In this document: positions 12,521-33,768 of the stretch, in pieces
How the letters are laid out: every line of letters starts with the position of its first letter
How positions within the stretch are numbered: the stretch's first letter is position 1
Source of the DNA: an uncultured Candidatus Saccharibacteria bacterium
GTDB lineage: Bacteria; Patescibacteriota; Saccharimonadia; Saccharimonadales; Saccharimonadaceae
DNA length: 33,768 nt
Assembly (NCBI GenBank): GCA_945916045.1
Contig: CAMEGH010000001.1
Span: 1-33,768, forward strand
Direction of reading: 5' to 3'
Translations under genes and position numbers: made by a program
The notes under the pieces: model-generated
What the model was told of the DNA's origin: nothing
The model's input: only the letters and a program-made list of their open reading frames with translations
Database searches by the model: none

Positions 12521-12535
12521 GTCTATATATTGACA
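12520..12535. promoter_or_regulatory. NrdR-box-like palindrome overlapping the nrdR start and its -10 element
   Basis: tgtCtAtATaTtGaca is a 7/8 palindrome. On the minus strand its central 10 nt, CaAtATaTaG, fit the published NrdR box core CwAtATaTwG. Confidence 0.4.
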
Positions 12536-12671
12536 TAAAGCTATTAAAAATACCAGTGGAAAAGCTTGTGGTTTTTGTGGAAAGGGTAGTAACGCGCCCG
12601 TACGTTGCGGTAAGGTGCACCTCCTGACTAGTGTTTTGGCGGCTAAAAATGGCGGTTTGGCACCGTAATTC

Positions 12672-12711
12672 CCTAAAGAAAAACCACCAGGCAGAAAGGG
12701 GAACCTGGTGG
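12672..12711 (-). terminator. intrinsic terminator of the small ORF transcript
   Basis: 8-bp stem ccaccagg/cctggtgg (12684-12691 / 12704-12711), followed on the minus strand by TTTTTCTTT. Confidence 0.7.
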
Positions 12712-12737
12712 AAAAGCTCGTTTAAATATGAACGCAG

Positions 12738-12854
12738 CTATTTTTTGTATTGTTCACGAACTTCGGCAATCGACATGTCGTATTCGAATGTCAGTTGAAA
12801 GCGCTCTAGTTCGGAAGGCTTCACTGTTTGTTTTACGTGTTTTGTATCAGCCAT
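12738..12854 (-). CDS. 38-aa small protein (hypothetical)
   Basis: ATG..TAG reads MADTKHVKQTVKPSELERFQLTFEYDMSIAEVREQYKK. It is below the ORF-track cutoff. It is bracketed by a consensus promoter 6 nt upstream and a terminator 26 nt downstream. Confidence 0.4.
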   Translation of the reverse strand: MADTKHVKQTVKPSELERFQLTFEYDMSIAEVREQYKK

Positions 12855-12860
12855 GTTTCT

Positions 12861-12889
12861 AATATAGCATAAGCATTATAAAATGTCAA
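12861..12889 (-). promoter_or_regulatory. sigma70-type promoter (TTGACA-17-TATATT), predicted leaderless
   Basis: Minus strand reads ttgaca-ttttataatgcttatgc-tatatt-agaaac-ATG. Confidence 0.6.
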
Positions 12890-12999
12890 CAGCTTTGTTT
12901 TGCAAATTTATATCACAATGTGCATAAACAGAGGTAAAATTGCATTATTTTTTTGTGGAAAACTTTTTGCGCAAAATGTGGAATTACACAAAAATTGGC

Positions 13000-13036
13000 G
13001 CGAAAAGGAAAAGCACCCGCTCGGGGGAGGGGTGCT
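13000..13036 (-). terminator. intrinsic terminator after the 13055-13507 gene
   Basis: Stem agcaccc/gggtgct (13012-13018 / 13030-13036), followed on the minus strand by TTTTCCTTTT. Confidence 0.7.
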
Positions 13037-13054
13037 GTTCACGAGTCGTTCCGG

Positions 13055-13507
13055 TTAGGTGGAATCGTTGGGCCGTTGTGCATGGTGGCCGGCTGTGGCC
13101 CGGGTGTCACTGGGCGCAGTGGTCGCATGCGTTGCCGTAGCGTTGATGATGCGGTGCGCTTCGGTCTCGCGGTACACGACAAGGTGGCAAAGCACCGGTA
13201 GCAAAGTGCCAACAGCGAAGAGCGTGGCAACAATCAGGCCGAAGTGATCGACGCTGATCATGCCGGAAAGCAGGCCGCTCAAGGCTATGAGCGCAAATGC
13301 ACCTGCCGACAGGCCGACGGCAATGACGATTCTTACGAAATCGTCGTACCAATCTTGCCGATATGCGCTCACCTTATCTTCGTCGGTGGCGTCGGCAGGG
13401 AGCAGCGCCTGTCTGCTGGGCGCTCCGCTAAAAAGCCAGTCGTAGATAAAAGCAGCGGCCAGGATCAGGCCGACACTGTAAAGAACGAGCGTCTCGAGTA
13501 TGGACAT
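13055..13507 (-). CDS. integral membrane protein (hypothetical)
   Basis: Start set at MSILETLVLYSVG, preceded by AGGAGG. The longer ORF would run through tRNA-Val. 3-4 TM helices and a Thr/Ala-rich C-terminus. Confidence 0.65.
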   Translation of the reverse strand: MSILETLVLYSVGLILAAAFIYDWLFSGAPSRQALLPADATDEDKVSAYRQDWYDDFVRIVIAVGLSAGAFALIALSGLLSGMISVDHFGLIVATLFAVGTLLPVLCHLVVYRETEAHRIINATATHATTAPSDTRATAGHHAQRPNDST

Positions 13508-18309: not shown

Positions 18310-18948
18310 ATGTTTGATATTGAATGTAAAGGTGGAAACGCTGTAGTAATTACAGCAAAAGGTGAGCAGCTTATCTTTGACCCGAAACTCTCGGTGGCAG
18401 GATTGCCAGATTTGAAGGTAAAAGATGCTGTGGTGGTTGCAACAGAAGATCGTTTGCTACATGCGGGCGAGGGCGAAAAACTCGTTATTAACGGGCCGGG
18501 TGAATACGAAGTTGGCGCGTTTTCGATTAAAGGCGTCGCAGCGCAACGCCATATTGATACCGAAGCCGATGAAAAACGCTCAACCATTTACCGCGTAGAA
18601 ATTGGTGATATTAAGATTGCTGTGCTTGGTAATGTTGCGCCAAAACTCACCGACGCGCAGCTTGAAGCGCTTGGCGTGGTAGATATTTTGATCGTGCCTG
18701 TGGGTGGCGGTGGCTACACGCTTGATGCGACCAGCGCCGTAGCGGCCACGCGTCAGGTTGAACCAAAGGTGGTGATTCCGGTGCATTTTGCCGATAAAGA
18801 TATGAAATACGAAGTGCCGCAAGATGAACTAGAAACGTTTAACCACGAGCTGAGCGCGCCAGTAGAAATCACTGCCAAATACAAGGTAAAATCTGCCGCA
18901 AGCTTGCCGGCAAACCTGACGATGGTAGGGGTGACGCGCACGTCATAG
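18310..18948 (+). CDS. MBL-fold-like protein (Lactamase_B_2/3-like); canonical HxHxDH motif not seen
   Basis: KIAVLGNV...VDILIVPVGGGGYTLDA..A....PKVVIPVHF resembles the UPF0173/MBL family. AGGAG SD upstream. Confidence 0.45.
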   Translation: MFDIECKGGNAVVITAKGEQLIFDPKLSVAGLPDLKVKDAVVVATEDRLLHAGEGEKLVINGPGEYEVGAFSIKGVAAQRHIDTEADEKRSTIYRVEIGDIKIAVLGNVAPKLTDAQLEALGVVDILIVPVGGGGYTLDATSAVAATRQVEPKVVIPVHFADKDMKYEVPQDELETFNHELSAPVEITAKYKVKSAASLPANLTMVGVTRTS

Positions 18949-19024
18949 TGCGCGGCTAGGGGCCTTGCAGGAATTTGCAGGGCCACGCTTACACTTTTTG
19001 TCACGAACCAAAGAACGCCACACA

Positions 19025-19061
19025 CAAAAAATCCGCCCTCATAACAGGGGCGGATATTTTG
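19025..19061. terminator. bidirectional intrinsic terminator between convergent genes
   Basis: 8-bp stem atccgccc/gggcggat (19031-19038 / 19048-19055), A-run upstream and T-run downstream. Confidence 0.75.
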
Positions 19062-19071
19062 TAGTTGCGCC

Positions 19072-19293
19072 TTAGGCTTCTACGGTCGCCTTGCCGCTCT
19101 TCGGAAGGATGCCCTTCTTTTTGAGTGTGCGGATTGCTTGCGTGCTAAGGGTCATGGTGACCTTTTGGCCATCAACTACGAAGGTTTTCTTCTGTAGATT
19201 TGGCTTAAAGACGCGCTTTGTGCGGCGCAAGCTGAAGCTTACGTTGTGGCCGTGTTGGGCGCGCTTGCCAGTTAAATCACATCGAGATGCCAT
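19072..19293 (-). CDS. rpmB: 50S ribosomal protein L28
   Basis: MASRCDLTGKRAQHGHNVSFSLRRTKRVFKPNLQKK is the canonical L28 N-terminus. Confidence 0.93.
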   Translation of the reverse strand: MASRCDLTGKRAQHGHNVSFSLRRTKRVFKPNLQKKTFVVDGQKVTMTLSTQAIRTLKKKGILPKSGKATVEA

Positions 19294-19403
19294 TGTTTTA
19301 CTTCCACTTCTTTTATTAATTAATCAATCCGTACCATTGTAACGGTTTTAGCGGGTTTCGTCAAGCTTTCGTGCTGCGCAGCTTAGCGTGGTATACTAGA
19401 GGA

Positions 19404-21255: not shown

Positions 21256-21702
21256 GCAGGCAGTGCACTAGATGATCGCTTGCGTTCTAATTTTAGGTAA
21301 CGTAAGAGGAAAGTCCGGGCAGCGTAGAACAAGATAGTTGCTAACGGCAACCGGGGGCGACCCTAGGGAAAGTGCCACAGAAACAAAACCGCCTCGCCAA
21401 AAGCCAGTGCTGCAAGGTCGTTTACGGCTCGGCAGTTACTGAGAGGTAAGGGTGAAAAGAGTGCCGTGCTTTTTCGGCGCGGGGCGAACTGTCTTCTCGT
21501 TTTTTGTGAAGGCAAGCGCCGGGTAAGAGCCCACAGCGACGCATGGTGACATGCGAAGGAGGTAAACCCTGTCTGCTGCAAGGAGGTGCTGGCGCATTGG
21601 CTGTTCGCCAGTCGGCATCGTTATCCGCTTGATCCGCTCGGCAATGGGCGGGCTAGATAGATGATCATCCACGACAGAACCCGGCTTACCGGTGCAGTGC
21701 CA
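21256..21702 (+). ncRNA. rnpB: RNase P RNA (bacterial type A-like)
   Basis: GAGGAAAGTCCGGGC (about 21307-21321), AGGGAAAGTGCCACAGAAA, GGTAAGGGTGAAAAGAGTGC and ACAGAACCCGGCTTAC (21674-21689). P1 pairs ggcagtgcac with gtgcagtgcc. TATAAT at 21246-21251. Ends are approximate. Confidence 0.9.
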
Positions 21703-21704
21703 AC

Positions 21705-21740
21705 AAAAAACACCCCCGTAAGGGAGGTGTTTTTTGTTTT
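21705..21740. terminator. bidirectional terminator shared by rnpB (+) and rplT (-)
   Basis: Stem aacaccccc / ggg(a)ggtgtt with a GTAA loop, flanked by an A-run and a T-run. Confidence 0.7.
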
Positions 21741-21792
21741 GCGGCGCATTTTGTTGCGCAAATAAAGTGGGGGGACGAACCCTCCTGATACT

Positions 21793-22134
21793 TTATTTTG
21801 CAGCTTTGGCGACTGCTTCAAACGCTTTTGGTTCGTTTGCGGCAAGTTCTGCCAAGATTTTGCGGTCAACTTCGACGTTGGCTTTTTTCAAACCAGCCAT
21901 CAATTTGCTGTAGGTTGTGCCGTTCAGGCGCGCCGCGGCGTTGATGCGGGTGATCCATAGGCCACGCAAATCACGCTTTTTGTTGCGGCGGTCGCGGTAT
22001 GAATACTGCAACGCGCGGATAACTGCTTGCTTGGCAAGGCGGAAACTGCGGGTGCGGTTGTGTTGCATACCCTTGGCAGCTTTGAGAATCTTTTTGTGCT
22101 TCGCTCGTGCGGCAACTCCTCGTTTTACTCGCAT
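21793..22134 (-). CDS. rplT: 50S ribosomal protein L20
   Basis: [22 protein letters not shown]...[24 protein letters not shown]. Confidence 0.95.
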
Positions 22135-22990: not shown

Positions 22991-24517
22991 TTACTGCTGG
23001 GCAATTTGCTGGCGATATTGGAGCGCTTCGGAAAGGTGCTGCGGTTCGATGGTGGGGCTGTTTTCAAGATCGGCAATGGTGCGGGCGACTTTGATAGTTT
23101 TGAAATAGCTGCGGGCGCTGAGCTGTAATTTTTCGCTGGCAAGATTAAGGATGTGTTCAGCTTTGGGCGAAAGCTGGGTGAGTTCGGCGATATTTTTACT
23201 GGCTAGTGAACTGTTGTATTTATTATTGTTTTGGTATCTGTTACGTTGATTTTGCGTGGCGGTGTGAATTACTTTTTTAGCAGTAGAGTGTTGCGTTTGT
23301 TGCAACGTGCTTATGCTTTGAAGAAACTTGTTGCTCGGTACGCGCGCCACGTTTATGACTAAATCAATGCGATCTAACAGTGGTCCCGAGAGGCGCTTTT
23401 GATATTGTAAGATGTGGTTATTACTACAGCTGCATTCTTTGCTTTCGTCGCCAAAATAGCCGCATGGGCAGGGGTTCATGGTAGCCACAAGCATGAAATC
23501 GGCTGGGTACGAAACGTGTCCATGGGCGCGCGTGATCGAAATAGTATTGTCTTCAAGCGGCTGGCGGAGTGATTCTAAAACGGAGCGCGGATATTCAGGA
23601 ATTTCGTCCAAAAACAACACGCCGTGGTGGGCTAAACTAATTTCGCCCGGGCGCGGTTTGGCGCCGCCGCCGATCAGCGACGTGCGACTGGCGGTGTGGT
23701 GCGGCGAGCGAAACGGGCGAGTGGTAATGATATTTTCGGTAGCCTCACCAGCTAGGCTGTGGAGCTTGGTGACGGCGATTTTTTCGGTATTGGTGAGCTC
23801 TGGCAAAAGATGCAGCAAGGTTTTGGCGAGCAACGTTTTGCCGCTACCGGGTGGCCCGTTGAGCAGGATATTATGGCGCCCGGCCACGGCAATCGTGAGG
23901 GCGCGTTTGGCTTGCTCTTGGCCAGAAATATCGTCGAGCGTGGTGTGAGCAGCTAATTCGTCGTCTTGGCTGGGCGCTTGCTCGTCTGCCAGGAAACTGA
24001 TGTGTTTTTCACCTTTCAAAACAAGAAATAACTCTTTAAGCGAGCTAATTGGCAGAAGCTCAATGCCTTCAACCAGCTGCGCTTGTGCAATATTTTGTGG
24101 TGGCAAATACAATGTTTTGATGCCATTATCGCGCGCGGTTTCGGCCATATTAATAATGCCGCGCACCGGCCGCACAGAGCCATCAAGCGCGAGTTCGCCT
24201 ACGAACGCACGATTATCTAATTGCGCTTGTTTTAGCTGGCCGCTGATGCACAAAATACTGAGTGCGATCGCGATATCGTAATGCGTGCCGTCCTTCGGAA
24301 GTTCGGCGGGTGCCAGGTTTATGGTAAGTTTGCGCGCCGGAAATTCCAGTAAAGAATTGGTAATAGCACTACGCACGCGCTCTTTGGCTTCATCGATCGC
24401 CTTATTACCCATGCCGACAATCTGTAAGGAAGGGAGCCCCTGCTTGGCATCGCTTTCAACCTCTACGAGTGCCCCCGAGAAGCCAGTTGGTGCGATACAA
24501 GTCACTTTGGCTACCAT
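22991..24517 (-). CDS. comM: YifB/ComM-family Mg-chelatase-like AAA+ ATPase
   Basis: MVAKVTCIAPTGFSGALVEVE..., GPPGSGKT, FLDEIPEY and the CPCGYFGD...C.C zinc motif. Start moved to the ATG at 24517; the longer ORF would overlap ssrA. Confidence 0.9.
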   Translation of the reverse strand: MVAKVTCIAPTGFSGALVEVESDAKQGLPSLQIVGMGNKAIDEAKERVRSAITNSLLEFPARKLTINLAPAELPKDGTHYDIAIALSILCISGQLKQAQLDNRAFVGELALDGSVRPVRGIINMAETARDNGIKTLYLPPQNIAQAQLVEGIELLPISSLKELFLVLKGEKHISFLADEQAPSQDDELAAHTTLDDISGQEQAKRALTIAVAGRHNILLNGPPGSGKTLLAKTLLHLLPELTNTEKIAVTKLHSLAGEATENIITTRPFRSPHHTASRTSLIGGGAKPRPGEISLAHHGVLFLDEIPEYPRSVLESLRQPLEDNTISITRAHGHVSYPADFMLVATMNPCPCGYFGDESKECSCSNNHILQYQKRLSGPLLDRIDLVINVARVPSNKFLQSISTLQQTQHSTAKKVIHTATQNQRNRYQNNNKYNSSLASKNIAELTQLSPKAEHILNLASEKLQLSARSYFKTIKVARTIADLENSPTIEPQHLSEALQYRQQIAQQ

Positions 24518-24593
24518 AATACCCCTTAGTATGGCAAAGCGCTTTCGTTTGCGCAAGCAGTTTATGGGCAAAATGTGGTATACTATAAGGTAT

Positions 24594-25000
24594 GGGGCTG
24601 ATATAGCTTTCGACAATTGGACTTTAACAGAATATTCTGCAGATCGAACATGCACGATACGCATAATTTTAATTGCAAAATCAAACGTTGCAAACGCATT
24701 TGCTAGCCTAAAGAGCGCTTTCGCTGCTCCAAAGATGGCTTTTGCGCCAATCGCTGCCTAGTTTAGCGATCATTCTGTCTTAGCTACGCAACAGTGCTAA
24801 GCGGAGTGTTATACTTTTTGTTGCTTGCTGCGCGGGCAGGAAGCGGCTCCCGTGCGGGACTTTTTCCGCGTAACCGCCGCGTTTATTTTTGACTTATTTT
24901 ATAGAACGCGGTGGTTATAAAACATCTAAACGAGTCTATGTCTGTAGAGGAATATTTTGTTACCGGTTGGACCGGGGGGCAGTACCCCGCAGCTCCACCA
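24594..25000 (+). ncRNA. ssrA: tmRNA (transfer-messenger RNA)
   Basis: 5' GGGGCTGAT..TTTCGAC and 3' GGACCGGGG-GGCAGTA-CCCCG-CAGCTCC-ACCA. E. coli has GGACGCGGG-UUCAACU-CCCGC-CAGCUCC-ACCA; G3:U70 is preserved. The tag frame runs from GCA at 24675 to TAG at 24759-24761 and reads AKSNVANAFASLKSAFAAPKMAFAPIAA. Extended -10 TGgTATACT at 24576-24584. Confidence 0.9.
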
Positions 25001-25010
25001 TACTGTATGT

Positions 25011-25040
25011 AAAGCGCCTTATTGTGAGGCGTTTTTGTTT
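25011..25040 (+). terminator. intrinsic terminator after ssrA
   Basis: Stem aaagcgcct/aggcgtttt with a 7-nt loop, then TTGTTTT. Confidence 0.75.
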
Positions 25041-25133
25041 TGGCTTGAATATGGAACGTGAATGGATGACGGAACGCTGTGCTGCGATGGATAAGTGCCG
25101 GGCGCTGTAGGTTGCAGGAGGGGTAAAATCCCG

Positions 25134-25240
25134 GAAAATAAAAACAACCGCCTGCGAGGAACGGTTGTTTTTGTGTGGAGTTTTTTGAAGAGTATTCTGT
25201 TTATTTTTGAGTTCCTGGATAATTTTTTTATTCAAGAACT
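25134..25240 (-). ncRNA. candidate ~105-nt sRNA (promoter-to-terminator unit)
   Basis: Begins about 7 nt downstream of a perfect TTGACA-17-TATTAT promoter. It has an internal 8-bp hairpin agttcttg/caggaact. It ends at the terminator aacaaccg/cggttgtt (25143-25150 / 25162-25169) plus TTTTTATTTT. The only ORF (TTG start) reads through the terminator. Confidence 0.4.
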
Positions 25241-25246
25241 ACCCCT

Positions 25247-25275
25247 ATAATATGATGTCAAAGCGCTTGTGTCAA
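25247..25275 (-). promoter_or_regulatory. consensus sigma70 promoter (TTGACA-17-TATTAT)
   Basis: Minus strand reads ttgaca-caagcgctttgacatca-tattat. Confidence 0.55.
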
Positions 25276-26297
25276 CGATTTTGCAAAAGTTTTTTATCTT
25301 TTTTGTTTTAGCCTGTGGAAAACCCATATCTAGTGGTATCGACACAAAATCAACACTATGTAAATAGGGTGCGGGCGAACAATGATTGTAGCGCGTGGAA
25401 TTTGGGTGTTTGTAGGGTGGTGTAGTGTAGGTTGGGTGTTTTGTGAATGGAGGGTAGATGTTTGTTTTTGACGACGCGGGGATTATGTGGGTGTGGCGAC
25501 TGAGTGGGTAATTCTTGTGTGGTTGTGGTTGGCGGCAAAATTGTTACGTTGTTGACTTAAAAGTGCCTGCCGTAGATCTTTGCATCCACTATGTGCCGCA
25601 CATAGCGATGCAATGCGAGTACGCGTTTGCAGCGCAGGTTGGTTTTGTAGCAATATGAAGATTTGTAGCGCGTAGCGCAAAAAACCGCCGCGGCAAAGTT
25701 CGGTGCTTAATCGTCAAATTGGCGGGCGGAAATAATTTTGCGCCGCGTGTTGTTTTTTGCGGGTGGGAAAACAGCAAAAATAATACGCCGCAAAAATGGT
25801 GAGGCAAAATGTGCATGGCGTATGGCAGTTTTCGTAAAGACTTTTTTGCGTCTAATTTTTAACGTGCGGGGCAGCTACGCAAAAATCTTTGCTGTAGAAA
25901 GCGTGTGGGTTCGCGCGCAAAATAGCGATAAGTGTAATGCGCACGGCTGGCGCAAAAACAGTATTTCGTTGTAAATAAAGCATATGCTTTTTGGCGCAAA
26001 ATGTCAAAGGGAAAAAAGTAAATAAGTAATGTACGGGCAAAATAGCTCCAGCAGAGTAGGGTACTGTGGCGCTTTGCTGCATAAAAAAAGGGGGTGCAAT
26101 TACGCCACCCGCTCGCGTAAAAACAAGCACGTACACGGCAAAAAACCACAAATTTGACCGTCCTGGCGCAAATAAGTGCTCAATTAATATAATTATTTAC
26201 AACGTTATAATCACCACAACATATATAAAATAACAGAGGTACAAAAACGATGTAGAGAATAACTATTTTATTTACAACAATAAAAGCATAAAAAGTA

Positions 26298-26326
26298 TTG
26301 ACAAAAAGCGTAAGCCTTGCTATTAT
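26298..26326 (+). promoter_or_regulatory. consensus sigma70 promoter (TTGACA-17-TATTAT)
   Basis: ttgaca-aaaagcgtaagccttgc-tattat in an AT-rich context. The next credible CDS start is about 480 nt downstream. Confidence 0.6.
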
Positions 26327-26814
26327 GGGTACAAGCTTTTAGAAAAACAAACAAAAGCAAAAAACCTTAACAATCTGGCATATGTCGAAAACGATCTCGC
26401 AGCTCACATCACGTATGGTGTAGTTTGACGAAAAGTTGGCAGCTTCAATGACGATGCGCGGCTACGGCGACGGGTAAATCTTTTACTTTTTGTTGCTATG
26501 GTTACAACGCTTGTTTATTGGTGTTGCCGATGCTCCGTCAAATTTATTTGATGTTTGAGCGCACGGTATGCAAGTACCGATTGCACCTAGTTAATCCCTG
26601 TTTTACAAAAACAAGCAGTGTGACTACTAGGTGTGATCTGGGAACGGTCCGTAAGTTTAGATATGCTCGAACTTTGTTCGAGCGGTCAGTCGCCTTTGAG
26701 TAGTGATTGAGCCGTTTTGTCGCCCGCCCTTTTAATTGTTTTACAGCGGTGGTTGCCGGCAGGGGTTCGCAAAGTCACTACTCAGGCACCATAATCTTTA
26801 GTATACTACTGCTT

Positions 26815-27201
26815 ATGGTACAAAAAATTATTGGTATTGTTGGAATTGTCGCCGCAGGATTGCTGGTGTATATTTTGAACGCTACCACGCCTACCGAAGC
26901 CGGTGCTCTTGGGGTGTTGGCTGTTTTTTTATTGTCGTATATTCTGTTGGCCGCCGCGCTGACCTTTTTTATTTTTTGGCTGTACCGAGTGGTGATTCGC
27001 GTGTTTTGGAGTGATAAGCCAGATACCGGCCGGCAGCATTTTACATTGAAAAAATCCTATTATTATTCATCTGTGTTGGCGCTTGGGCCGGTGATGATGG
27101 TGAGTTTGCGATCAGTCGGGCAGGACGGCTGGGTGCAATATGGCTTGATGCTTTTCTTGCTGTTTTTGGGGTGCGTTTACGTATCGCGCCAAGCCTCGTA
27201 A
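26815..27201 (+). CDS. small integral membrane protein (hypothetical), first gene of the T4CP-like cluster
   Basis: MVQKIIGIVGIVAAGLLVYIL... with 3-4 TM helices. The ATG lies 7 nt downstream of TATACT (26802-26807). Confidence 0.6.
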   Translation: MVQKIIGIVGIVAAGLLVYILNATTPTEAGALGVLAVFLLSYILLAAALTFFIFWLYRVVIRVFWSDKPDTGRQHFTLKKSYYYSSVLALGPVMMVSLRSVGQDGWVQYGLMLFLLFLGCVYVSRQAS

Positions 27202-27243
27202 AAGAGGTGCTTTTTTGTGTACGCTTATGCTATAATGGCAGGT

Positions 27244-27687
27244 ATGCAGCCAGAGTTTTCACCACAGGCACGAGGCGGAGAGGCGCCGCCAAATCAATAC
27301 GGCCAAGGGTACGAAGTACCGCCTAATTTTGCATTGCCAGAAATGGCCCCTGGGCAGAATTTTGAAGCGCCACTGCAATCGCCTGAACAGGCGATGGAAC
27401 GCAGTCCGATTGAGCTTGCGCCGCAGCCACCGCAAATGTTGCCGCAGCAGCCGATGCCAATGACGCCGGCGCCGCTGCCAGCCACACCGCAACCACAGGT
27501 GGAAGTGGGCAATCCAGTTGCCGCAAACGACGACGACACGATCGAAAAAGAATGGGTTGATCGCGCAAAACAGGTGATTATTCAAACACGTGACGACCCG
27601 CGCGCTCGTGAAAAGGCAATCGGCGCGTTGCAGCGAGATTATTTAATGAAACGGTATGGCAAGGAACTTGGCGCGACAAACGACTAG
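27244..27687 (+). CDS. hypothetical protein: Pro/Gln-rich disordered N-terminus plus a conserved-looking helical C-terminal domain
   Basis: MQPEFSPQ...PQPPQMLPQQPMPMTPAPLP..., then TIEKEWVDRAKQVIIQTRDDPRAREKAIGALQRDYLMKRYGKELG. The ATG lies 7 nt downstream of TGcTATAAT (27228-27236). Confidence 0.55.
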   Translation: MQPEFSPQARGGEAPPNQYGQGYEVPPNFALPEMAPGQNFEAPLQSPEQAMERSPIELAPQPPQMLPQQPMPMTPAPLPATPQPQVEVGNPVAANDDDTIEKEWVDRAKQVIIQTRDDPRAREKAIGALQRDYLMKRYGKELGATND

Positions 27688-27696
27688 GGTGGAACA

Positions 27697-30600
27697 ATGA
27701 TTGGCGTAATTGTAGCAGTATTCTTTATTATCGTAATCCTGATTGTGGCAGGCGGGCTTATTTATTATGCTTACCAGGGAACGCTGCGCGAGGCAAAAAA
27801 TTACGAACGTGGCTTAAAAATGGTGCCAATGTTGATTCATTTGCCGCCGCCAAGCGACGACCTTGAGACAGGCGGGCGTGATGCGCGCGATGTGACCGAG
27901 GAGCTTTTGAGCCAAGCGCAAGTGATGTATAACATTATTGCCAGTACGTCGCTAAAAGGGTTTAAGCACCGTATTTATGGCCAACGCCACGTATCGTTTG
28001 AGCTTGTCGCTAAAAATGGACTCATTTATTATTACGCGGTGGTGCCAATTGTGTTGGTAGATACTGTGAAGCAGGCGATTGCGGCGGCGTATCCGTCGGC
28101 GCGGCTAGAAGAGGTCGAAGAGCATACAATTTTTGCTGAAGGCGGGCGCATGACGGGCATAATTGGTGGCGAATTTACGCTGCAAAAAAGCCACGCCTAC
28201 CCAATTGCAACGTATCAAGAATCGAAACGAGATGCTTCGCGTGCGCTGCTTAATGCGCTTTCGACCGCAACGACGAAGGACGGCATCGGCATTCAATTTT
28301 TAATACGCCCGGCGCAAGAAGGCTGGGTAAAATCGTCGCTTGATACGGTAGAGCGCATCAAAAAGGATCGTGCCACGGGTAAATCGTCAGGCTCGGTTAT
28401 TGGCAAACACGGTATGCGCGGCGTGGCCGAAGTATTGTGGAAACCACCAAACGCGGAAAATTACCAAGAAGAGCACAATGTTGATACGCAACTAACCGCG
28501 CTTGAGCAGCAGTCGATTGATGCGATTGAAGAAAAAACTCGCTATCCGGGCTACGAAACGCTGATTCGCGTGGTGGTTTCTTCTGACACTGCAATGCGCT
28601 CACAAACGCTCATGAAAAACGTCGTGGCGTCGTTTTCGCTGTTTGATTCACCAAGCTATAACGGCTTTAAATTTATTCCCACGCGCAATGTTGACGATTT
28701 GGTAACGTCCTACATTTTCCGCTTTTTCCCGCAATCGGTAAAGACGAATATTCTTAATTCTGTAGAATTGGCGACGCTTTTCCACTTGCCAGATCAAAAG
28801 AATATTCCAACCGCGCAGGTGAAGCGCCAAATGAGCAAGCAGGTTGACGGCCCAACCGAGCCAATGGATAGCGGATTTTTGCTTGGCTATAACGAATTCC
28901 GTGGCCTGAAAAAGCCAATTCGCCTGAGCGACAACGATCGCCGCCGCCATTTGTATATGATTGGGCAAACTGGTACTGGTAAGTCAAAATTCCTTGAAAA
29001 TTTGGCCTTCCAAGATATGTTGGACGGGCGCGGGTTTGCGTTTATTGATCCGCACGGCGACTCTGCCGAGGTGTTGATGGGCGCGGTGCCAAAAGAGCGC
29101 GTCGAAGACATTATTTACTTTAATCCATCCGACATGGACAACCCAATCGGGCTCAATATGTTTGAATTTAACACGCCCGACCAAAAGGACTTTTTGGTCC
29201 AGGAGGCAATCGGGATGTTGTACGGATTGTACGACCCGGGCCACACCGGTATTATTGGGCCGCGTTTGGAGCATATTTTCCGTAACGCGGCGCTGCTATT
29301 GATGTCCGACCCGGCAGGCGGCACGTTTATCGATATTCCAAAGCTGTTGGTCGACCAAGAATTTATGAAGAGCAAGCTAAAATATGTGACCGACCCGACC
29401 GTGCTCGAATTTTGGACAAAAGAATGGCCGGCCTCGCAAAAATCAAGCGAAGCGGGTGAATTGGTGAGCTGGGTGGTTTCCAAATTTGGGCCGTTCCTTT
29501 CCAACGACGCCATGCGCAATATTATTGGCCAAACTAAATCTGGCTTTAATTTGCGCGACATTATGGACAACAAAAAAATCCTTATCGTCAATCTTTCAAA
29601 GGGTAAAATGGGCGAATTGAATTCTAAGTTGCTTGGTATTATCTTTGTGATGAAGTTCCAAGCGGCAGCCATGGGGCGCGCCGATATGCCAGAAGACGAG
29701 CGCGAAGATTTTAGCTTGTATGTCGACGAGTTCCAGAACTTTATGACCGAAAGTTTTGAGTCGATTTTGTCGGAAGCGCGAAAATACCGTTTGAGTTTGG
29801 TGCTTGCGAACCAGTTTATGACGCAGCTAACCGATAAGATCCGCGAGGCGATTATCGGAAACGTCGGTACGGTGATTAGCGGTCGTATTGGTATTACCGA
29901 CGCCGAAATGCTGGTGAAGAAGTTTGAGCCGGTGTTTAGCGCGGAAGATATGACAAAAATGCCGAACTTCCAGGGAATCGCCAGCGTGATGATTAATAAC
30001 ACGCCGTCTGCGCCGTTTAGCATGTCGTTTACGCCACCGCTTGCGAAGTCGCAAGAGAAGATTGCGGCTGCAATGAAGCGGCTTGCTGCCACGAAATATG
30101 GCCGCCCGCGTGCAGAAGTTGAGGCAGAGATTAAGAAGCGTATTGCCGCGAATGTCGGGCAGCCAGGTGCGCGACCAGCGGGTGTGGCTCCGGGCGGTGC
30201 GCCAAAGAAGCCGGGTAGTTCGTCGTTCTTGGATGACTGGTTGGCGAAACGGCAACAATCGGGTGGCGCGCGACCAGGGGTGATTAAGCAGCCGACTAGT
30301 GCTCCGCAACAACGACCGGCTGGGCCCGGGCCGCAATCTCAATCCCTGCAGCCAATGCCGCAACAAGCACCGCAGCCGCTCACGGGTGCACCGGGCGGAA
30401 TGCAGCAACCAGCGCCGCAATCTATGGCGCCACCACAAATGGCTGCACCGGCGCAATCGCAACCGATGGCAGGTGCTGCACCAGCTCAGGCGCAACAGCA
30501 GCCAATGCAATCATCGGCGTCGGGCCAGTTTGGCGAACAGCCTGTGCAGGCTCCACAGCAGCAGTTTGGCGGGCAGTCGCCGCAGCCGCAATCACAAACG

Positions 30601-30768
30601 CAACCAGTAGCCGCACCGGCGCAATTTGCGCCCCAGCAGTCAGAAAACGGCTCGTTTGGCGCACCAGCTCAAACTGCGCCAATGCCACAAACTCCGCCGG
30701 TAGCACCGCCGCAAACGAGCGCTCCGGTGCCAACGCCTACTGAAGATGGCATTTTGCGCCTGCGTTAG
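27697..30768 (+). CDS. type IV coupling protein-like (TraD/TraG/VirD4-family) P-loop ATPase with N-terminal TM anchor and a ~200-aa Gln/Pro/Ala-rich tail
   Basis: N-terminal TM helix IGVIVAVFFIIVILIVAGGLIYYA. Walker A HLYMIGQTGTGKSKFL followed by FAFIDPHGD. Walker B FSLYVDEFQNF. SEARKYRLSLVLANQFMTQL. The C-terminus is low-complexity PQQAPQP... Confidence 0.75.
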   Translation: MIGVIVAVFFIIVILIVAGGLIYYAYQGTLREAKNYERGLKMVPMLIHLPPPSDDLETGGRDARDVTEELLSQAQVMYNIIASTSLKGFKHRIYGQRHVSFELVAKNGLIYYYAVVPIVLVDTVKQAIAAAYPSARLEEVEEHTIFAEGGRMTGIIGGEFTLQKSHAYPIATYQESKRDASRALLNALSTATTKDGIGIQFLIRPAQEGWVKSSLDTVERIKKDRATGKSSGSVIGKHGMRGVAEVLWKPPNAENYQEEHNVDTQLTALEQQSIDAIEEKTRYPGYETLIRVVVSSDTAMRSQTLMKNVVASFSLFDSPSYNGFKFIPTRNVDDLVTSYIFRFFPQSVKTNILNSVELATLFHLPDQKNIPTAQVKRQMSKQVDGPTEPMDSGFLLGYNEFRGLKKPIRLSDNDRRRHLYMIGQTGTGKSKFLENLAFQDMLDGRGFAFIDPHGDSAEVLMGAVPKERVEDIIYFNPSDMDNPIGLNMFEFNTPDQKDFLVQEAIGMLYGLYDPGHTGIIGPRLEHIFRNAALLLMSDPAGGTFIDIPKLLVDQEFMKSKLKYVTDPTVLEFWTKEWPASQKSSEAGELVSWVVSKFGPFLSNDAMRNIIGQTKSGFNLRDIMDNKKILIVNLSKGKMGELNSKLLGIIFVMKFQAAAMGRADMPEDEREDFSLYVDEFQNFMTESFESILSEARKYRLSLVLANQFMTQLTDKIREAIIGNVGTVISGRIGITDAEMLVKKFEPVFSAEDMTKMPNFQGIASVMINNTPSAPFSMSFTPPLAKSQEKIAAAMKRLAATKYGRPRAEVEAEIKKRIAANVGQPGARPAGVAPGGAPKKPGSSSFLDDWLAKRQQSGGARPGVIKQPTSAPQQRPAGPGPQSQSLQPMPQQAPQPLTGAPGGMQQPAPQSMAPPQMAAPAQSQPMAGAAPAQAQQQPMQSSASGQFGEQPVQAPQQQFGGQSPQPQSQTQPVAAPAQFAPQQSENGSFGAPAQTAPMPQTPPVAPPQTSAPVPTPTEDGILRLR

Positions 30769-31287: not shown

Positions 31288-32471
31288 AATAAGGCTCCTT
31301 CGTTGGCGTCGCGCCGAATTAGGCGAATTTCTTCTTTATATTGCAACGACCGCACGTAATAAAACAGGATTGTCGCAAATAGCAGTGCACTAAGGGCGAT
31401 GACGGTGTTATTTTGCACATTTGGTAGTTCGCGCGAGGCAGTTTCGACCGTTTTTGTGAGCGGGCACGCAACTGGTGTAAATAGGCTTTCGCCAAAACTG
31501 CTGCGCATGAGGCAGTCAAACGAATGCGGATTGCTTTGGCCTTGTGCGGTGGCAGGCAAATGCGGTTTTAGGCGTGCCGAAAAGCGTTTTTGCACCGTTT
31601 CGCCAGCCGGGAGCTCAAGGTTTGGCCACGTAATGAGGCCATTTTCTGGGTTGAATTGACCGTCTTTTGCGTCAACAGCGTCGGCGTATTCTTGAATGTC
31701 AGCCACGTCGTGTGTAATGGTTGTAGCGATAGTATCTTCGGTTGGATTTTCGACGGTGAGCGTATAGGTGAGGCGATCTGAGGGTTGGGCGGTTGCATCG
31801 GCGGCATTTTGCGTGTCGTTATGAACAGTGACGCTGCGAATAAGATCAGTTTCTGTAGCAAGATAGCGCAAATCTGGCAGCGAGGAAAGTAACACCGAGC
31901 CGGAATCCGTCAAAATGGCAAAATTGCCAAGCGCGTGCGATGTACCTGTGAGTGCGTCGTGCGTTTGCTGCTTGTACGGCAGCGCGGCTTGCGCAGGATT
32001 GAGGTAGAGCGTGCGCGGCGTTTCCTGGCTGGCGGTGTGGTAGGGCAGCGCTTTGGTGTCATTGGTGGCGGCAAACGGGCGGTCGCTCGCAAGATACGCG
32101 CCGTCAAGATCGCGATATGCAATAGTGGCGGGGTTTAGCGCGCGAATTTCTTCATGGGTAATACCGAGCGCTGAAAGTTTATCGTTAAAAAACGCCGTAT
32201 TGCGGTTGTACGCGCGCAAGGTGTTTTCAAGATTTTGCGTGCCGCCGTAGACCAAATCGTATCTGCTAGCGGTGTTATTTGATTCGGGCGGATACGCTAG
32301 TACCAGTACCTGCAGGACGATTGCCGGAATCAACAAAAACGCACTCAAACGGCGCAATTTTTCTTCGCGCTTGAGTTCTTTTGCATAGAGTGCCACCTCG
32401 CCAATCGATGTTGGGCTTAGTGCCAAATCCGTAATATATTTGCGAAACATGTTCGTTTTATGCCGCCTCAC
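31284..32471 (-). CDS. bitopic membrane protein with DUF11/CARDB-like beta-sandwich domain (hypothetical)
   Basis: TM helices near both termini. DRLTYTLTVENPTEDTIATTITHDV...GLITWPNLELPAGETVQKRFSARL matches the conserved-repeat (DUF11) pattern. The start is ambiguous: GTG at 32471 or ATG at 32450. Confidence 0.6.
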   Translation of the reverse strand: MRRHKTNMFRKYITDLALSPTSIGEVALYAKELKREEKLRRLSAFLLIPAIVLQVLVLAYPPESNNTASRYDLVYGGTQNLENTLRAYNRNTAFFNDKLSALGITHEEIRALNPATIAYRDLDGAYLASDRPFAATNDTKALPYHTASQETPRTLYLNPAQAALPYKQQTHDALTGTSHALGNFAILTDSGSVLLSSLPDLRYLATETDLIRSVTVHNDTQNAADATAQPSDRLTYTLTVENPTEDTIATTITHDVADIQEYADAVDAKDGQFNPENGLITWPNLELPAGETVQKRFSARLKPHLPATAQGQSNPHSFDCLMRSSFGESLFTPVACPLTKTVETASRELPNVQNNTVIALSALLFATILFYYVRSLQYKEEIRLIRRDANEGALL

Positions 32472-32528
32472 CCCTTATCGTTCTTGTGCTTAAGTATAGC
32501 ACAAATTGCGCGCGAGCGGCAATAATGC

Positions 32529-32557
32529 TTGAGCATTCAGAGGTAATTGGGTATACT
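32529..32557 (+). promoter_or_regulatory. putative gyrB promoter (TTGAGC-17-TATACT)
   Basis: ttgagc-attcagaggtaattggg-tatact lies about 45 nt upstream of the gyrB ATG, with a GAGGGAAGG SD between. Confidence 0.5.
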
Positions 32558-32602
32558 AAAAGGGTATACAGCTGAAAATTCTAGAGACAGTGAGGGAAGG
32601 TA

Positions 32603-33768
32603 ATGGCTAAACAAACAAAAGCCGAATCGTATGACGGTTCACAAATTCAAGTGCTTGAGGGCCTTGAACCGGTGCGTAAGCGCCCGGGAATGTATATTGG
32701 GAGCACAGGATATGACGGTGTTCACCACTTAATTAAAGAAATCGCCGACAACTCGATCGACGAAGCGATCGCAGGGCACGCCACAAAGGTGGATGTGCGT
32801 ATTTTGGAAGATGGCGGCATTACGATCACCGATGACGGCCGTGGTATTCCGGTTGATAAACACGCCAAAACGGGCTTGAGTACGCTTGAAACAGTGCTAA
32901 CCGTACTGCACGCCGGTGGTAAATTTGGTGGCGGTGGCTACAAAGTTTCATCTGGTTTGCACGGTGTTGGTTCGAGCGTGGTAAACGCGCTTTCAACCAA
33001 AATGATCGCCGAAGTCGTACGCGACGGGCAATTGCACCGCGTAGAATTCCAACAAGGTGGCATTGCTGCGCCGCTCAAAAAAGTCGGCAAAACCGATCGC
33101 CCAACCGGCACGACCATTACGTTTTACCCCGACCCAACCATTTTTAAAGAAACGGTTACTTTTGACTACAAATGGGTGGTGAATTATTTGCGCCACCAAG
33201 CGTATCTGACGAAAGGTGTATTTACATCGGTCTTTGATGAGCGTACCAAAGAACGCCAGGCGTTTTACTTTGATGGCGGGATTAAGAGCTACGTTAAGCA
33301 TTTGAATATCGGCAAAGATGTGCTTTCGAGCGATATTTTCTACGTTGAAAAGCAGGTCGAAGATTGCGAAGTCGAAGTGGCGATTCAGTACAACGACACG
33401 TACGTTGAAAACGTGAAGCCATTTGCCAACAACGTGTTGACCCCTGATGGCGGAACGCACTTGGTAGGCTTCCGTACGGCGATGACGCGTGTGATTAACG
33501 ATTACGCCCGCAAAAATAGCTTGCTGAAGGAAAAAGACGACAACCTAAGTGGCGACGATGTGCGCGAAGGTTTGACGGCTGCAATTTTGGTGAAATTGCC
33601 AGATCCACAGTTTGAAGGCCAAACTAAAAACAAGCTCGGCAATCCAGAAATGCGCCGTTACGTTGAGCAAGTGATGAACGAATACTTTAGCTACTATCTG
33701 GAAGAAAATCCAGATGTCGCCAAGAAGATTATCGGCAAAGCGGTACTCGCAGCGCGTGCGCGTAAAGC
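32603..33768 (+). CDS. gyrB: DNA gyrase subunit B (5' part; runs off the window end)
   Basis: Absent from the ORF track because it has no stop in the window. ATG at 32603 translates to MAKQTKAESYDGSQIQVLEGLEPVRKRPGMYIGSTG...HHLIKEIADNSIDEA...LHGVGSSVVNALS. Confidence 0.95.
   Translation, partial: MAKQTKAESYDGSQIQVLEGLEPVRKRPGMYIGSTGYDGVHHLIKEIADNSIDEAIAGHATKVDVRILEDGGITITDDGRGIPVDKHAKTGLSTLETVLTVLHAGGKFGGGGYKVSSGLHGVGSSVVNALSTKMIAEVVRDGQLHRVEFQQGGIAAPLKKVGKTDRPTGTTITFYPDPTIFKETVTFDYKWVVNYLRHQAYLTKGVFTSVFDERTKERQAFYFDGGIKSYVKHLNIGKDVLSSDIFYVEKQVEDCEVEVAIQYNDTYVENVKPFANNVLTPDGGTHLVGFRTAMTRVINDYARKNSLLKEKDDNLSGDDVREGLTAAILVKLPDPQFEGQTKNKLGNPEMRRYVEQVMNEYFSYYLEENPDVAKKIIGKAVLAARARK

What the first reader, a model, noticed from the sequence alone, without database searches (positions are those of the whole stretch)
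25001..26814. 1.8-kb ORF-free but signal-dense locus immediately 3' of ssrA
**Seen:**
- Elsewhere in the window, spacers between genes are mostly under 150 bp.
- Between the tmRNA terminator and the next credible CDS (26815) there are about 1.8 kb in which no ORF exceeds 99 aa. None of these ORFs has an SD, a leaderless-type promoter or a recognisable motif.
- The stretch nevertheless carries two textbook TTGACA-17-TATTAT promoters (25247-25275 minus strand, 26298-26326 plus strand).
- It also has at least three intrinsic terminators (25011-25040, 25134-25175, and a minus-strand gggtg/caccc hairpin plus T7 at about 26075-26112).
- It contains a strongly strand-skewed G+T tract, repeated 11-12-mers and many perfect hairpins.

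**Established:** tmRNA 3' ends are classical integration sites for islands and prophages.

**Inference:** this is either a cluster of novel non-coding RNA genes or long leaders, or a decayed integrated element. No integrase and no duplicated ssrA 3' end were found.
Basis: partly seen in the sequence, partly recalled or inferred. Interest (0 to 1): 0.7.

Follow-up and report, generated by a model that had tools for sequence, protein, structure and literature searches.

The report
Two conserved RNA genes beside ssrA
The gene-free 1.8 kb after the tmRNA gene of this Saccharibacteria (TM7) genome holds two conserved, previously undescribed RNA genes: a ~105-nt small RNA and a ~460-nt highly folded RNA at the head of the type IV secretion-like operon, with about 0.8 kb of freely drifting spacer DNA between them.

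Summary
25001-26814 has no ORF above 99 aa, both 11/12 promoters are there, and it is by far the largest gap in the window.

The signals fall into three classes.

1. **Left flank, 25128-25360.** A minus-strand small RNA gene with promoter, 5' hairpin, conserved ACUCCAC stretch and terminator. A covariance model finds one copy in each of 41 Saccharibacteria loci, always next to ssrA. It is 95.5% paired, with 10 of 22 pairs compensatory.

2. **Right flank, 26185-26800.** A conserved operator-like region and promoter lead into a ~460-nt multi-helix RNA. It lies directly upstream of a leaderless membrane-protein/T4CP operon. Its 3' domain is 95.3% paired, with 30 of 34 pairs compensatory. It evolves about 7-fold slower than 4-fold degenerate sites. 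Rfam 15 has no match for it.

3. **Centre, 25361-26184.** This part holds the G+T tract, the GCAAAA repeats and the minus-strand terminator. It has no counterpart even in genus-level relatives, and the equivalent spacer in a relative pair evolves near the neutral rate. Its GC skew matches the local skew at silent sites.

There is no integrase, no att repeat, no protein remnant and no phage or plasmid similarity. The "decayed element" reading does not. Function is inferred, not shown.

The parts
24594..25000 (+). tmRNA (ssrA), the left anchor of the locus
   Evidence: Rfam RF00023, 85.3 bits, E 6e-32. ARAGORN missed it.
25011..25040 (+). Intrinsic terminator of ssrA. Its sequence is not conserved in relatives.
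   Evidence: Terminator scan. Fold -12.5 kcal/mol, z -2.7. The alignment shows a hairpin plus T run here in most relatives, built from unrelated sequence.
25133..25240 (-). Candidate small RNA of ~105 nt. It has a 5' hairpin (GUUCUUG/CAGGAAC with an A-rich loop), an A-rich linker, a conserved single-stranded AAAACUCCACA, and a terminator hairpin (25172-25140) with a conserved CUCGCAG loop.
   Evidence: Model R2 hit at 25128-25246, 115.9 bits. There is one hit in each of 41 Saccharibacteria loci, always next to ssrA. The structure is 95.5% paired, 10/22 pairs have changes on both sides, and 0/500 shuffles reach it. Fold z -3.8.
25247..25275 (-). Sigma-70-type promoter of the small RNA (TTGACA-17-TATTAT), followed by a G-rich discriminator AGGGGT
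   Evidence: 11/12 match. Both hexamers and their spacing are conserved in 49 aligned relatives.
25276..25360 (.). Conserved region upstream of the small-RNA promoter. It includes a DnaA-box-like TGTGGAAAA at 25314-25322, which reads as the perfect box TGTGGATAA in about 10 relatives.
   Evidence: 84% identity to genus-level relatives up to 25360. Alignment. This is the only DnaA-box-like site in the locus.
25361..26184 (.). Lineage-specific spacer. It holds the G+T tract (about 25380-25540), the GCAAAA-rich stretch (25530-26170), a minus-strand promoter-like site (26007-25979) and a hairpin plus U7 (26112-26075).
   Evidence: No DNA or protein similarity to any relative. In L182 vs L183 the equivalent spacer diverges 3.7%, against 5.4% at 4-fold sites. 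GC skew is 0.28, against 0.27 at 4-fold sites of the flanking genes. No Pfam or PHROG hits.
26185..26297 (.). Conserved AT-rich control region upstream of the large-RNA promoter. It carries two TTATTTACAAC boxes (26193-26213 and 26268-26288); the distal one reads as the palindrome ACAACGTTGT in relatives.
   Evidence: Direct repeat D5 / D3. Motifs are conserved at fixed distances in about 30 relatives. 77% identity to genus-level relatives from 26185 onwards.
26298..26326 (+). Sigma-70-type promoter of the large RNA (TTGACA-17-TATTAT with a TG extension)
   Evidence: 11/12 match. TTGAC and TGnTAnnnT are nearly invariant in 29 relatives.
26333..26794 (+). Large structured RNA of ~460 nt. It starts with a conserved A-rich 5' tail (AAGCUUUUAGAAAAACAAACAAAAGCAAAA, 26333-26380). 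The 5' domain (about 26420-26575) has helices P1/P2 (26435-26443 with 26522-26530), P2b, and the P3 hairpin (26536-26553). The 3' domain (26583-26794) has helices at 26579-26591/26626-26638, 26598-26603/26613-26618, 26665-26672/26676-26683 and 26698-26706/26775-26783, plus an invariant GGUCAG (26684-26689).
   Evidence: Alignment A1 gives 55 predicted pairs, 38 compensatory. The 3' domain gives 34 pairs, 26 compensatory. Model R1 scores 145 bits at 26583-26794, with one hit per locus. Alignment A4 is 95.3% paired, 30/34 pairs compensatory, 0/500 shuffles, and at most 48% paired when slid. 5' domain. MFE z -4.4. No variable site in 26385-26814 among 11 strains. No Rfam hit at E<=10. No conserved ORF.
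26802..26814 (+). -10 box TATACT (26802-26807) plus 7 nt, placing the transcription start on the A of ATG 26815. This is a leaderless promoter for the operon.
   Evidence: TGnTA(T/C)(A/G)NT followed by 5-9 nt and ATG is conserved in nearly all of about 70 relatives.
26815..27201 (+). First gene of the type IV secretion-like operon: a 128-aa membrane protein, followed by a 156-aa protein (27217-27687) and a T4CP-like ATPase (27697-30768). This is the right anchor of the locus.
   Evidence: tblastn start positions in 77 loci. Pfam TraG-D_C, T4SS-DNA_transf and TrwB hits. DUF8128 on the identical protein.

Best explanation
The 1.8-kb ORF-free interval is an ancestral non-coding locus of Saccharibacteria. 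It is not an insertion. It holds two divergently transcribed RNA genes, each with about 90-110 bp of conserved upstream control DNA. About 0.8 kb of essentially unconstrained DNA lies between them.

**(1) Small RNA, minus strand (shown: anatomy and conservation).**
- It is transcribed from 25275-25247 towards ssrA.
- It ends at a bidirectional terminator hairpin that in some relatives also terminates ssrA.
- Inferred: it acts in trans by base pairing, through the invariant single-stranded ACUCCAC stretch, which is complementary to GUGGAG(U), a Shine-Dalgarno-like sequence.

**(2) Large RNA, plus strand (shown: promoter, structure, conservation, position).**
- It runs from about 26333 to about 26794, starting from promoter 26298-26326.
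- That promoter lies downstream of TACAAC / ACAACGTTGT operator-like boxes.
- The RNA folds into at least nine helices.
- It always ends 15-70 nt before the start codon of the membrane-protein/T4CP operon, on the same strand, with no strong terminator.
- That operon has its own conserved leaderless promoter.
- Inferred, about 55%: it is a regulatory RNA dedicated to the secretion operon. Regulated transcription through the structured RNA would run into, and so modulate, the leaderless promoter and operon mRNA by interference or attenuation at the last long helix plus pyrimidine-rich tail.
- The alternative is listed as a rival: a free-standing structured RNA or RNP component that merely keeps this address.

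**(3) Centre, 25361-26184.** This is drifting spacer. Its G+T richness is the local replication-strand mutational skew showing through at unconstrained sites. Its GCAAAA repeats, hairpins and terminator-like site are species-specific.
For: **Synteny**
- RNase P - ComM - ssrA - small RNA - spacer - large RNA - membrane protein - T4CP is found in genome and metagenome relatives down to 60% ComM identity.

**Small RNA**
- Promoter, hairpins and motifs are conserved at 75-83% identity, higher than tmRNA at 60-70%.
- One hit per locus in 41/41 Saccharibacteria loci, none in the 22 other loci searched (21 non-Saccharibacteria controls and L007).
- It stays next to ssrA even where the module is inverted (L003, L005).

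**Large RNA**
- Hits are specific to Saccharibacteria and sit at the syntenic site, including weak hits in distant members.
- Between L182 and L183 it diverges 0.79%, against 5.4% at 4-fold sites.
- There are zero variable sites in 430 bp among 11 strains.
- No conserved ORF.
- The operator-like boxes are conserved.
- The leaderless -10 is conserved.

**Spacer**
- No similarity even at genus level, with sharp boundaries at 25360 and 26185.
- Near-neutral rate.
- Skew equals the silent-site skew.
- Its length ranges from 81 to about 1700 bp. It holds a HAD hydrolase or an Ldh_2 gene in a few relatives.

**Not in known RNA libraries or literature**
- No Rfam 15 match.
- A TM7x transcriptome paper states there are no validated small RNAs in that organism (bioRxiv 10.1101/2022.03.25.485537).
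- The T4SS cluster is essential in Southlakia epibionticum (PMC10633639).
Against: - No transcript data were available. Transcript ends are inferred from promoter geometry and hairpins.
- Alignment A4 was fitted to the model's structure, which inflates pair counts. The MAFFT-only alignments show the same covariation.
- The shuffle control ignores phylogeny.
- The large RNA lacks a canonical terminator, so an independent RNA and a leader cannot be told apart.
- In the window the operon's start codon has no Shine-Dalgarno sequence. A long-leader mRNA would therefore translate the first gene poorly, which argues against a simple 5'-UTR role.
- No target was found for the small RNA's seed in the window.
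- A spacer that persists with a modal length of about 690 bp in a roughly 1-Mb genome is not explained by neutrality alone.
Confidence: 0.8

Rival explanations
1. The large RNA is a free-standing, trans-acting structured RNA. It could be a ribonucleoprotein component or a ribozyme-like RNA, in the way OLE, ROOL, GOLLD or raiA are orphan large RNAs. On this reading its position before the secretion operon is conserved synteny, not regulation.
For: - It has its own strong, operator-equipped promoter.
- The operon downstream has an independent leaderless promoter.
- Its size, number of helices and degree of constraint exceed typical leaders.
- The window's start codon lacks a Shine-Dalgarno sequence for translation from a long leader.
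Against: - There is no intrinsic terminator between the last helix and the operon.
- Same strand and near-fixed distance to the start codon in more than 40 loci, with no case of separation.
Confidence: 0.35
2. The interval is the remnant of an island or prophage that integrated into the 3' end of ssrA and then decayed.
For: - ssrA 3' ends are classical integration sites (established knowledge).
- The centre is species-specific and variable in length.
- Contigs of one relative species break at its right edge in three assemblies.
Against: - No integrase or any protein remnant in six frames.
- No second copy of the ssrA 3' end.
- No phage or plasmid similarity.
- The variable part does not abut ssrA. 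It lies between two conserved RNA genes.
- The flanks and overall architecture are ancestral.
- The composition matches the host's silent-site skew.
Confidence: 0.03
3. The conserved blocks encode unannotated small proteins rather than RNAs.
For: Short ORFs exist, for example 26518-26703 (61 aa) and 25095-25250 (51 aa). tblastn of their translations hits relatives.
Against: - The tblastn hits occur in several frames and on both strands of the same DNA.
- The longest ORF in the large RNA differs in frame, position, start codon and length (25-95 aa) among 28 relatives.
- Substitutions are compensatory across helices.
- Hairpins are rebuilt from unrelated sequence.
- No gene caller placed a consistent gene here in any of the strain-level or genus-level assemblies; only three unrelated short calls (60-85 aa) appear, differing between assemblies of the same species.
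Confidence: 0.04
4. The locus is a DNA-level element rather than a set of RNA genes. Candidates are a replication origin or other protein-binding array (DnaA box, AT-rich stretch, GCAAAA iterons) or a degenerate CRISPR-like array.
For: - A DnaA-box-like site at 25314-25322 is a perfect box in about 10 relatives.
- There is an AT-rich stretch at 26170-26300.
- GCAAAA is enriched 8-fold.
Against: - GC skew is positive across the whole window, with no switch.
- There is only one DnaA-box-like site in the locus, and boxes are not enriched in the window.
- The GCAAAA enrichment is absent from genus-level relatives, and its spacing is irregular.
- No tandem or regularly spaced repeats.
Confidence: 0.03

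Closest known systems
Orphan large structured bacterial ncRNAs (OLE, ROOL, GOLLD, raiA, HEARO)
   Same: - Several hundred nucleotides long, with many covarying helices and invariant single-stranded stretches.
- No coding potential and a restricted phylogenetic range.
- Found by comparative analysis of an unusually long intergenic region.
- GOLLD and ROOL often lie next to tRNA genes, as this locus lies next to ssrA (own knowledge).
   Different: - No sequence or structure match to any of them, or to any other of the 4227 Rfam 15 models, even at E<=10.
- Confined, as far as tested, to Saccharibacteria.
- Always placed head-to-tail before one particular operon, without a terminator.
Long structured 5' leaders and RNA-controlled promoters of Gram-positive conjugation/T4SS operons (for example the prgQ leader and Anti-Q of pCF10)
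   Same: - An RNA of several hundred nucleotides precedes a type IV secretion gene cluster.
- The promoter is controlled by an operator.
- A small RNA gene is transcribed from the opposite strand nearby (own knowledge of pCF10; not tested here).
   Different: - Chromosomal and ancestral, not plasmid-borne.
- The small RNA here does not overlap the large RNA, and no conserved complementarity between them was seen on inspection (no tool comparison was run).
- The operon has its own leaderless promoter.
- No sequence similarity to plasmids.
Intrinsic-terminator-ended trans-acting small RNAs with a C/U-rich seed that masks Shine-Dalgarno sequences (for example RsaE/RoxS-type)
   Same: - About 100 nt, with its own sigma-70-type promoter.
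- A 5' hairpin, an unpaired pyrimidine-rich conserved motif (ACUCCAC) and a Rho-independent terminator.
   Different: - No homology to any Rfam small RNA.
- The terminator loop CUCGCAG is itself invariant, which ordinary terminators are not.
- Linkage to ssrA is fixed.
- No target identified.
ssrA-targeting genomic islands and prophages
   Same: The position immediately 3' of ssrA, and a species-specific segment of variable length.
   Different: - All defining marks are absent: integrase, att duplication, cargo genes and foreign composition.
- The variable segment is separated from ssrA by a conserved small-RNA gene.

Membership tests
ssrA-integrated island / prophage remnant | Tyrosine or serine integrase gene (or a recognisable pseudogene) next to ssrA | tested here: not met
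   Six-frame pieces of 25001-26830 have no protein-level match in 160 related loci. There are no Pfam or PHROG hits at E<=1 apart from noise. The only recombinase in the window is 22 kb away, at 1575-2600.
ssrA-integrated island / prophage remnant | Direct repeat of the ssrA 3' end (attL/attR) bounding the element | tested here: not met
   The last 19 nt of ssrA occur once in the window at up to 3 mismatches. No long direct repeats lie downstream.
ssrA-integrated island / prophage remnant | Absent from the same site in related genomes, with foreign composition | tested here: not met
   The flanking RNA genes and a spacer are present in nearly all relatives. The spacer's GC skew of 0.28 equals the silent-site skew of the neighbouring genes, 0.27.
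Any described RNA family (Rfam 15, 4227 models, including OLE, ROOL, GOLLD, raiA, HEARO, 6S, SRP, riboswitches, T-box) | Covariance-model score at or above the family's gathering threshold | tested here: not met
   Only tmRNA scores in this part of the window. At E<=10 the interval gives only chance-level hits, at most 24 bits against thresholds of 55-104.
Structured non-coding RNA (generic) | Base pairs maintained by compensatory substitutions across relatives, beyond shuffled and slid controls | tested here: met
   Small RNA: 95.5% paired, 10/22 pairs compensatory, 0/500 shuffles. Large RNA: 95.3% paired, 30/34 pairs compensatory, 0/500 shuffles, at most 48% paired when slid. The same signal appears on structure-blind MAFFT alignments.
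Structured non-coding RNA (generic) | Evidence of transcription (promoter, defined ends, detected transcript) | tested here: inconclusive
   Promoters are conserved at consensus quality, and the small RNA has a terminator. No expression data could be consulted. The 3' end of the large RNA is undefined.
Cis-regulatory leader / riboswitch | Lies in the 5' UTR of the regulated gene on the same strand, with an expression platform (terminator/antiterminator or masking of the ribosome-binding site) | tested here: inconclusive
   The same strand and adjacency hold in more than 40 loci. No alternative-pairing platform was identified. The gene has a conserved leaderless promoter of its own, and the window has no Shine-Dalgarno sequence.
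Chromosomal replication origin (oriC) | Cluster of DnaA boxes, an AT-rich unwinding element and a GC-skew sign change | tested here: not met
   There is one DnaA-box-like site in the locus, and the window count equals the chance expectation. GC skew is positive throughout the window.
CRISPR or other regular repeat array | Regularly spaced direct repeats | tested here: not met
   No tandem array. Repeat families are 10-26 nt long with irregular spacing.

The most novel reading that the evidence does not exclude
The ~460-nt RNA is a new class of large structured RNA with a direct mechanistic role in the unusual, essential type IV secretion-like machine of Saccharibacteria. It might be a scaffold, a ligand- or protein-sensing switch, or a transported substrate, rather than an ordinary leader. 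The ssrA-linked small RNA would then be a second phylum-specific riboregulator. Together they would be the first functional non-housekeeping RNAs defined in the Patescibacteria (CPR).
Probability: 0.2. Interest if true: 0.85.

Novelty: new variant of a known kind. Interest (0 to 1): 0.62.

Why it matters
Saccharibacteria are obligate epibionts with genomes of about 1 Mb and almost no intergenic space. A TM7x transcriptome paper notes that no small RNA has been validated in that organism.

Two strongly constrained RNA genes have now been found in the largest non-coding gap of this genome piece. One of them is a large multi-helix RNA at the head of the gene cluster that Tn-seq found essential for epibiotic growth in Southlakia (PMC10633639). 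This gives a concrete and testable handle on how these organisms control their host-interaction machinery.

Large structured bacterial RNAs of unknown function are few. Each new class has been of interest to RNA biologists.

The result also gives a practical caution. Half of the "signals" in such a gap can be mutational skew and drift.

Tried and rejected
- **Replication origin.** Prompted by the DnaA-box-like site and the AT-rich stretch. Rejected by uniform positive GC skew and no box cluster.
- **dnaA/dnaN guess.** My guess that ORFs 241-1500 and 3821-4930 were dnaA and dnaN was wrong.
- **Pseudogene of genes found in relatives' spacers.** HAD hydrolase occurs in L090, L091 and L105, and Ldh_2 in L092. 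tblastn finds no remnant in the window or other loci.
- **Protein remnants in general.** Searched by six-frame tblastn, Pfam and PHROGs. Nothing found.
- **Phage or plasmid DNA similarity.** None.
- **Exact 16-mer GGAGCGGTCAGTTGCC in viral contigs.** Five hits, but none matches the RNA model, so they are chance matches.
- **Targets for the small RNA's seed (GTGGAGT) in the window.** Only its own antisense and one site inside a gene, which equals chance.
- **14-mer shared by the large RNA's 5' tail and 32609-32622.** It is the start of gyrB (codons for AKQTK), so it is a coincidence.
- **GCAAAA repeats as binding sites.** The enrichment is real. It is absent from the equivalent spacer of the genus-level relatives, and the spacing is irregular.
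- **One model for the whole large RNA.** Not possible, because the alignment has 464 columns and the limit is 400. The 3' domain was modelled, and the 5' domain was analysed separately.
- **Literature.** Searches found no description of these RNAs.
Full report
**Where we are.** The window is a piece of a Saccharibacteria (TM7) chromosome.
- Rfam finds RNase P RNA at 21260-21704 and tmRNA at 24594-25000. ARAGORN misses the tmRNA.
- ComM lies at 22991-24517 on the minus strand.
- After the gap come a 128-aa membrane protein (26815-27201), a 156-aa protein, and a 1023-aa T4CP-like ATPase.
- The closest genomes are Saccharimonadales MAGs.

- No ORF above 99 aa lies in 25001-26814.
- Both 11/12 promoters are present.
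- The ssrA terminator is confirmed, and so is the perfect 11-nt-arm hairpin at 25140-25172.
- The G+T skew is confirmed, as are the short repeats.
- The gap is the largest in the window by a factor of about 3.
- The minus-strand hairpin plus U7 at 26075-26112 exists, but it is no more stable than shuffles.

**Comparative anatomy.** I collected the following loci:
- six Saccharibacteria loci through ComM;
- 80 through the T4CP;
- ten strain-level loci (99.7% identical) through the membrane protein;
- genus-level loci.

Sensitive blastn divides the interval sharply:
- 24523-25360 is conserved, at 84% in genus-level relatives. Its core, 25135-25300, keeps 75-83% identity even where tmRNA has dropped to 60-70%.
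- 26185-27291 is also conserved (77%).
- 25361-26184 matches nothing, in DNA or in any reading frame.

**Left flank: a small RNA gene.**
- A 49-sequence alignment shows a minus-strand TTGACA-17-TATAAT promoter.
- Downstream come a G-rich discriminator, a 5' hairpin, an A-rich linker, an invariant AAAACUCCACA, and a terminator hairpin whose loop CUCGCAG is invariant while its stem covaries.
- On a 26-sequence alignment the proposed structure is 95.5% paired, with 10 of 22 pairs changed on both sides. None of 500 shuffles reaches it, and slid controls pair at 39-48%.
- The window copy folds with z = -3.8.
- A covariance model finds exactly one copy in each of 41 Saccharibacteria loci and none in 22 control loci.
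- The copy is always beside ssrA. It is usually convergent. In L003 it is inverted together with ssrA, and in L005 it is on the same strand as ssrA.
- About 40 nt upstream of the -35 there is a DnaA-box-like TGTGGAAAA, which is a perfect TGTGGATAA in about ten relatives.

**Right flank: a large structured RNA.**
- A 29-sequence alignment from the promoter to the start codon shows a nearly invariant promoter.
- It also shows a conserved A-rich 5' tail beginning AAGCUUUU at the predicted start, and about 400 nt full of compensatory changes.
- RNAalifold predicts 55 pairs, 38 of them compensatory. The 3' domain alone gives 34 pairs, 26 compensatory.
- A model of the 3' domain hits the window at 26583-26794 (145 bits).
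- It gives one hit in every T4CP-linked locus with enough upstream sequence. It gives weak hits in L005 and L002 and none in non-Saccharibacteria controls, including other CPR lineages.
- With filters off, the best hits in the distant L002, L001 and L004 all lie at the syntenic spot.
- On the 41-sequence model alignment, 95.3% of cells pair and 30 of 34 pairs are compensatory. The covariation score is 0.56 against 0.23 in shuffles (0/500), and slid versions pair at 28-48%.
- In the 5' domain, P1/P2 have 8 of 12 compensatory pairs. Two further hairpins are rebuilt from unrelated sequence in nearly every relative.
- The window RNA folds with z = -4.4.
- No ORF is conserved.
- Rfam 15 gives nothing, even at E<=10.

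**Control DNA and the operon promoter.**
- Upstream of the large RNA's promoter, TACAAC boxes are conserved at fixed distances. The distal box forms the palindrome ACAACGTTGT. In the window they form the 21-nt repeat at 26193 and 26268. I read them as an operator.
- Immediately before the operon's ATG, nearly all relatives keep TGnTATAGT followed by 5-9 nt. In the window this is TATACT-7 nt-ATG.
- That is the geometry of a leaderless promoter. The operon can therefore be transcribed independently of the large RNA.
- No intrinsic terminator separates the two. The last helix is followed by a pyrimidine-rich CUCUCUU-type tail in most relatives.

**Rates.**
- Between two 98%-identical relatives (L182, L183), 4-fold degenerate sites differ at 5.4% (40/745).
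- In the same pair the spacer differs at 3.7% (33/891), the large-RNA region at 0.79% (5/632), tmRNA at 1.3% and the small-RNA region at 1.5%.
- Among 11 strain-level sequences, no site varies in 26385-26814. Nine of the 14 variable sites of the interval lie in the spacer.

**The centre.**
- Its GC skew (0.28 here, 0.30-0.35 in relatives) equals the skew at 4-fold sites of both flanking genes (0.27).
- The G+T tract is therefore what unconstrained leading-strand DNA looks like in this genome.
- GCAAAA enrichment is absent from the equivalent spacer of the genus-level relatives.
- Spacer length ranges from 81 to about 1700 bp, with a mode near 690 bp.
- A HAD hydrolase gene (L090, L091, L105) or an Ldh_2 gene (L092) sits there in some relatives.
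- No Pfam or PHROG signal, no phage or plasmid similarity, and no att-like repeat were found.
- Why a spacer persists at all is not explained.

**Interpretation.**
- Shown: two constrained, structured, promoter-equipped non-coding elements and a drifting spacer.
- Inferred: the small RNA is a trans-acting base-pairing RNA using ACUCCAC.
- Inferred: the large RNA regulates the secretion operon in cis or at the locus (about 55%), or is a free-standing structured RNA (about 35%).
- The integrated-element, small-protein and origin readings are each at or below 5%.
- Literature searches found no prior description. A TM7x study states that no small RNAs are validated. The T4SS cluster is essential in Southlakia.

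**Verdict.** The finding is real and worthwhile. The locus contains two candidate new RNA families, one of them large. Function remains untested. About half of the listed signals are drift.

Noticed in passing
window 24594-25000: ARAGORN does not report the tmRNA that Rfam scores at 85 bits. The gene is long (407 nt) with an insertion after the tag region, so tRNA/tmRNA-based annotation of such genomes can miss ssrA.
   Followed up: partly
window 25314-25322 (and relatives L097, L098, L100, L101, L107, L110, L111, L116, L117, L121): A DnaA-box-like TGTGGAAAA lies about 40 nt upstream of the small RNA's -35. In about ten relatives it is the perfect box TGTGGATAA. This may mean DnaA acts as a transcription factor here. 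It is not an origin.
   Followed up: partly
window 26802-26815 and about 70 related loci: The first gene of the secretion operon has a conserved extended -10 (TGnTATAGT) placed 5-9 nt before the ATG. This indicates a leaderless mRNA.
   Followed up: partly
L179, L180, L181 (equivalent to window ~26180-26240): Three independent assemblies of one relative species, one of them a 71.6-kb contig, all end at the right edge of the spacer. This suggests population heterogeneity or repeats in that species' spacer.
   Followed up: no
contig table (for example ERZ761580.1, ERZ761607.1, Ga0207671_10000003, Ga0157369_10000003, Ga0265297_10000009): Several genome-sized contigs (0.5-1.07 Mb) from different metagenomes end only about 8-13 kb downstream of the T4CP gene. 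This points to a recurrent assembly break, from a repeat or hypervariable region, just beyond the window's right end.
   Followed up: no
L090 3633-4271 (-), L091, L105; L092 3370-4356 (+): In a few relatives the spacer between the two RNA genes carries an intact HAD-family hydrolase or a malate/L-lactate dehydrogenase (Ldh_2) gene. The spacer is therefore a site of gene gain or loss.
   Followed up: yes
window 25530-26170: GCAAAA, mostly as (G/C)GCAAAA, occurs 11 times on the plus strand, about 8-fold above the rest of the window. It is absent from the equivalent spacer of the genus-level relatives, and its cause is unknown.
   Followed up: partly
window 1575-2600 (-) and tRNA-Arg 3178-3254: A tyrosine recombinase (Phage_integrase plus SAM-like N-terminal domain) lies near a tRNA-Arg gene. 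It is possibly XerC/D or an integrase. It is 22 kb from ssrA and unrelated to the finding.
   Followed up: no
window 32604-33768: gyrB starts at 32604 ([33 protein letters not shown]...) and runs off the window end, so the ORF listing does not show it.
   Followed up: no
window 21260-21704: The RNase P RNA (class A) is 445 nt against a 367-position model, with two sizeable insertions.
   Followed up: no
window 12520-13055, 18948-19371, 21704-22027, 32471-32603: Other gaps of 130-530 bp have no ORF of 90 aa or more. They were not examined for RNAs or small genes.
   Followed up: no
L145/L146 2301-2922: In one lineage about 620 bp are inserted between ssrA and the small RNA gene. This is the only case seen where the two are not directly adjacent.
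   Followed up: no
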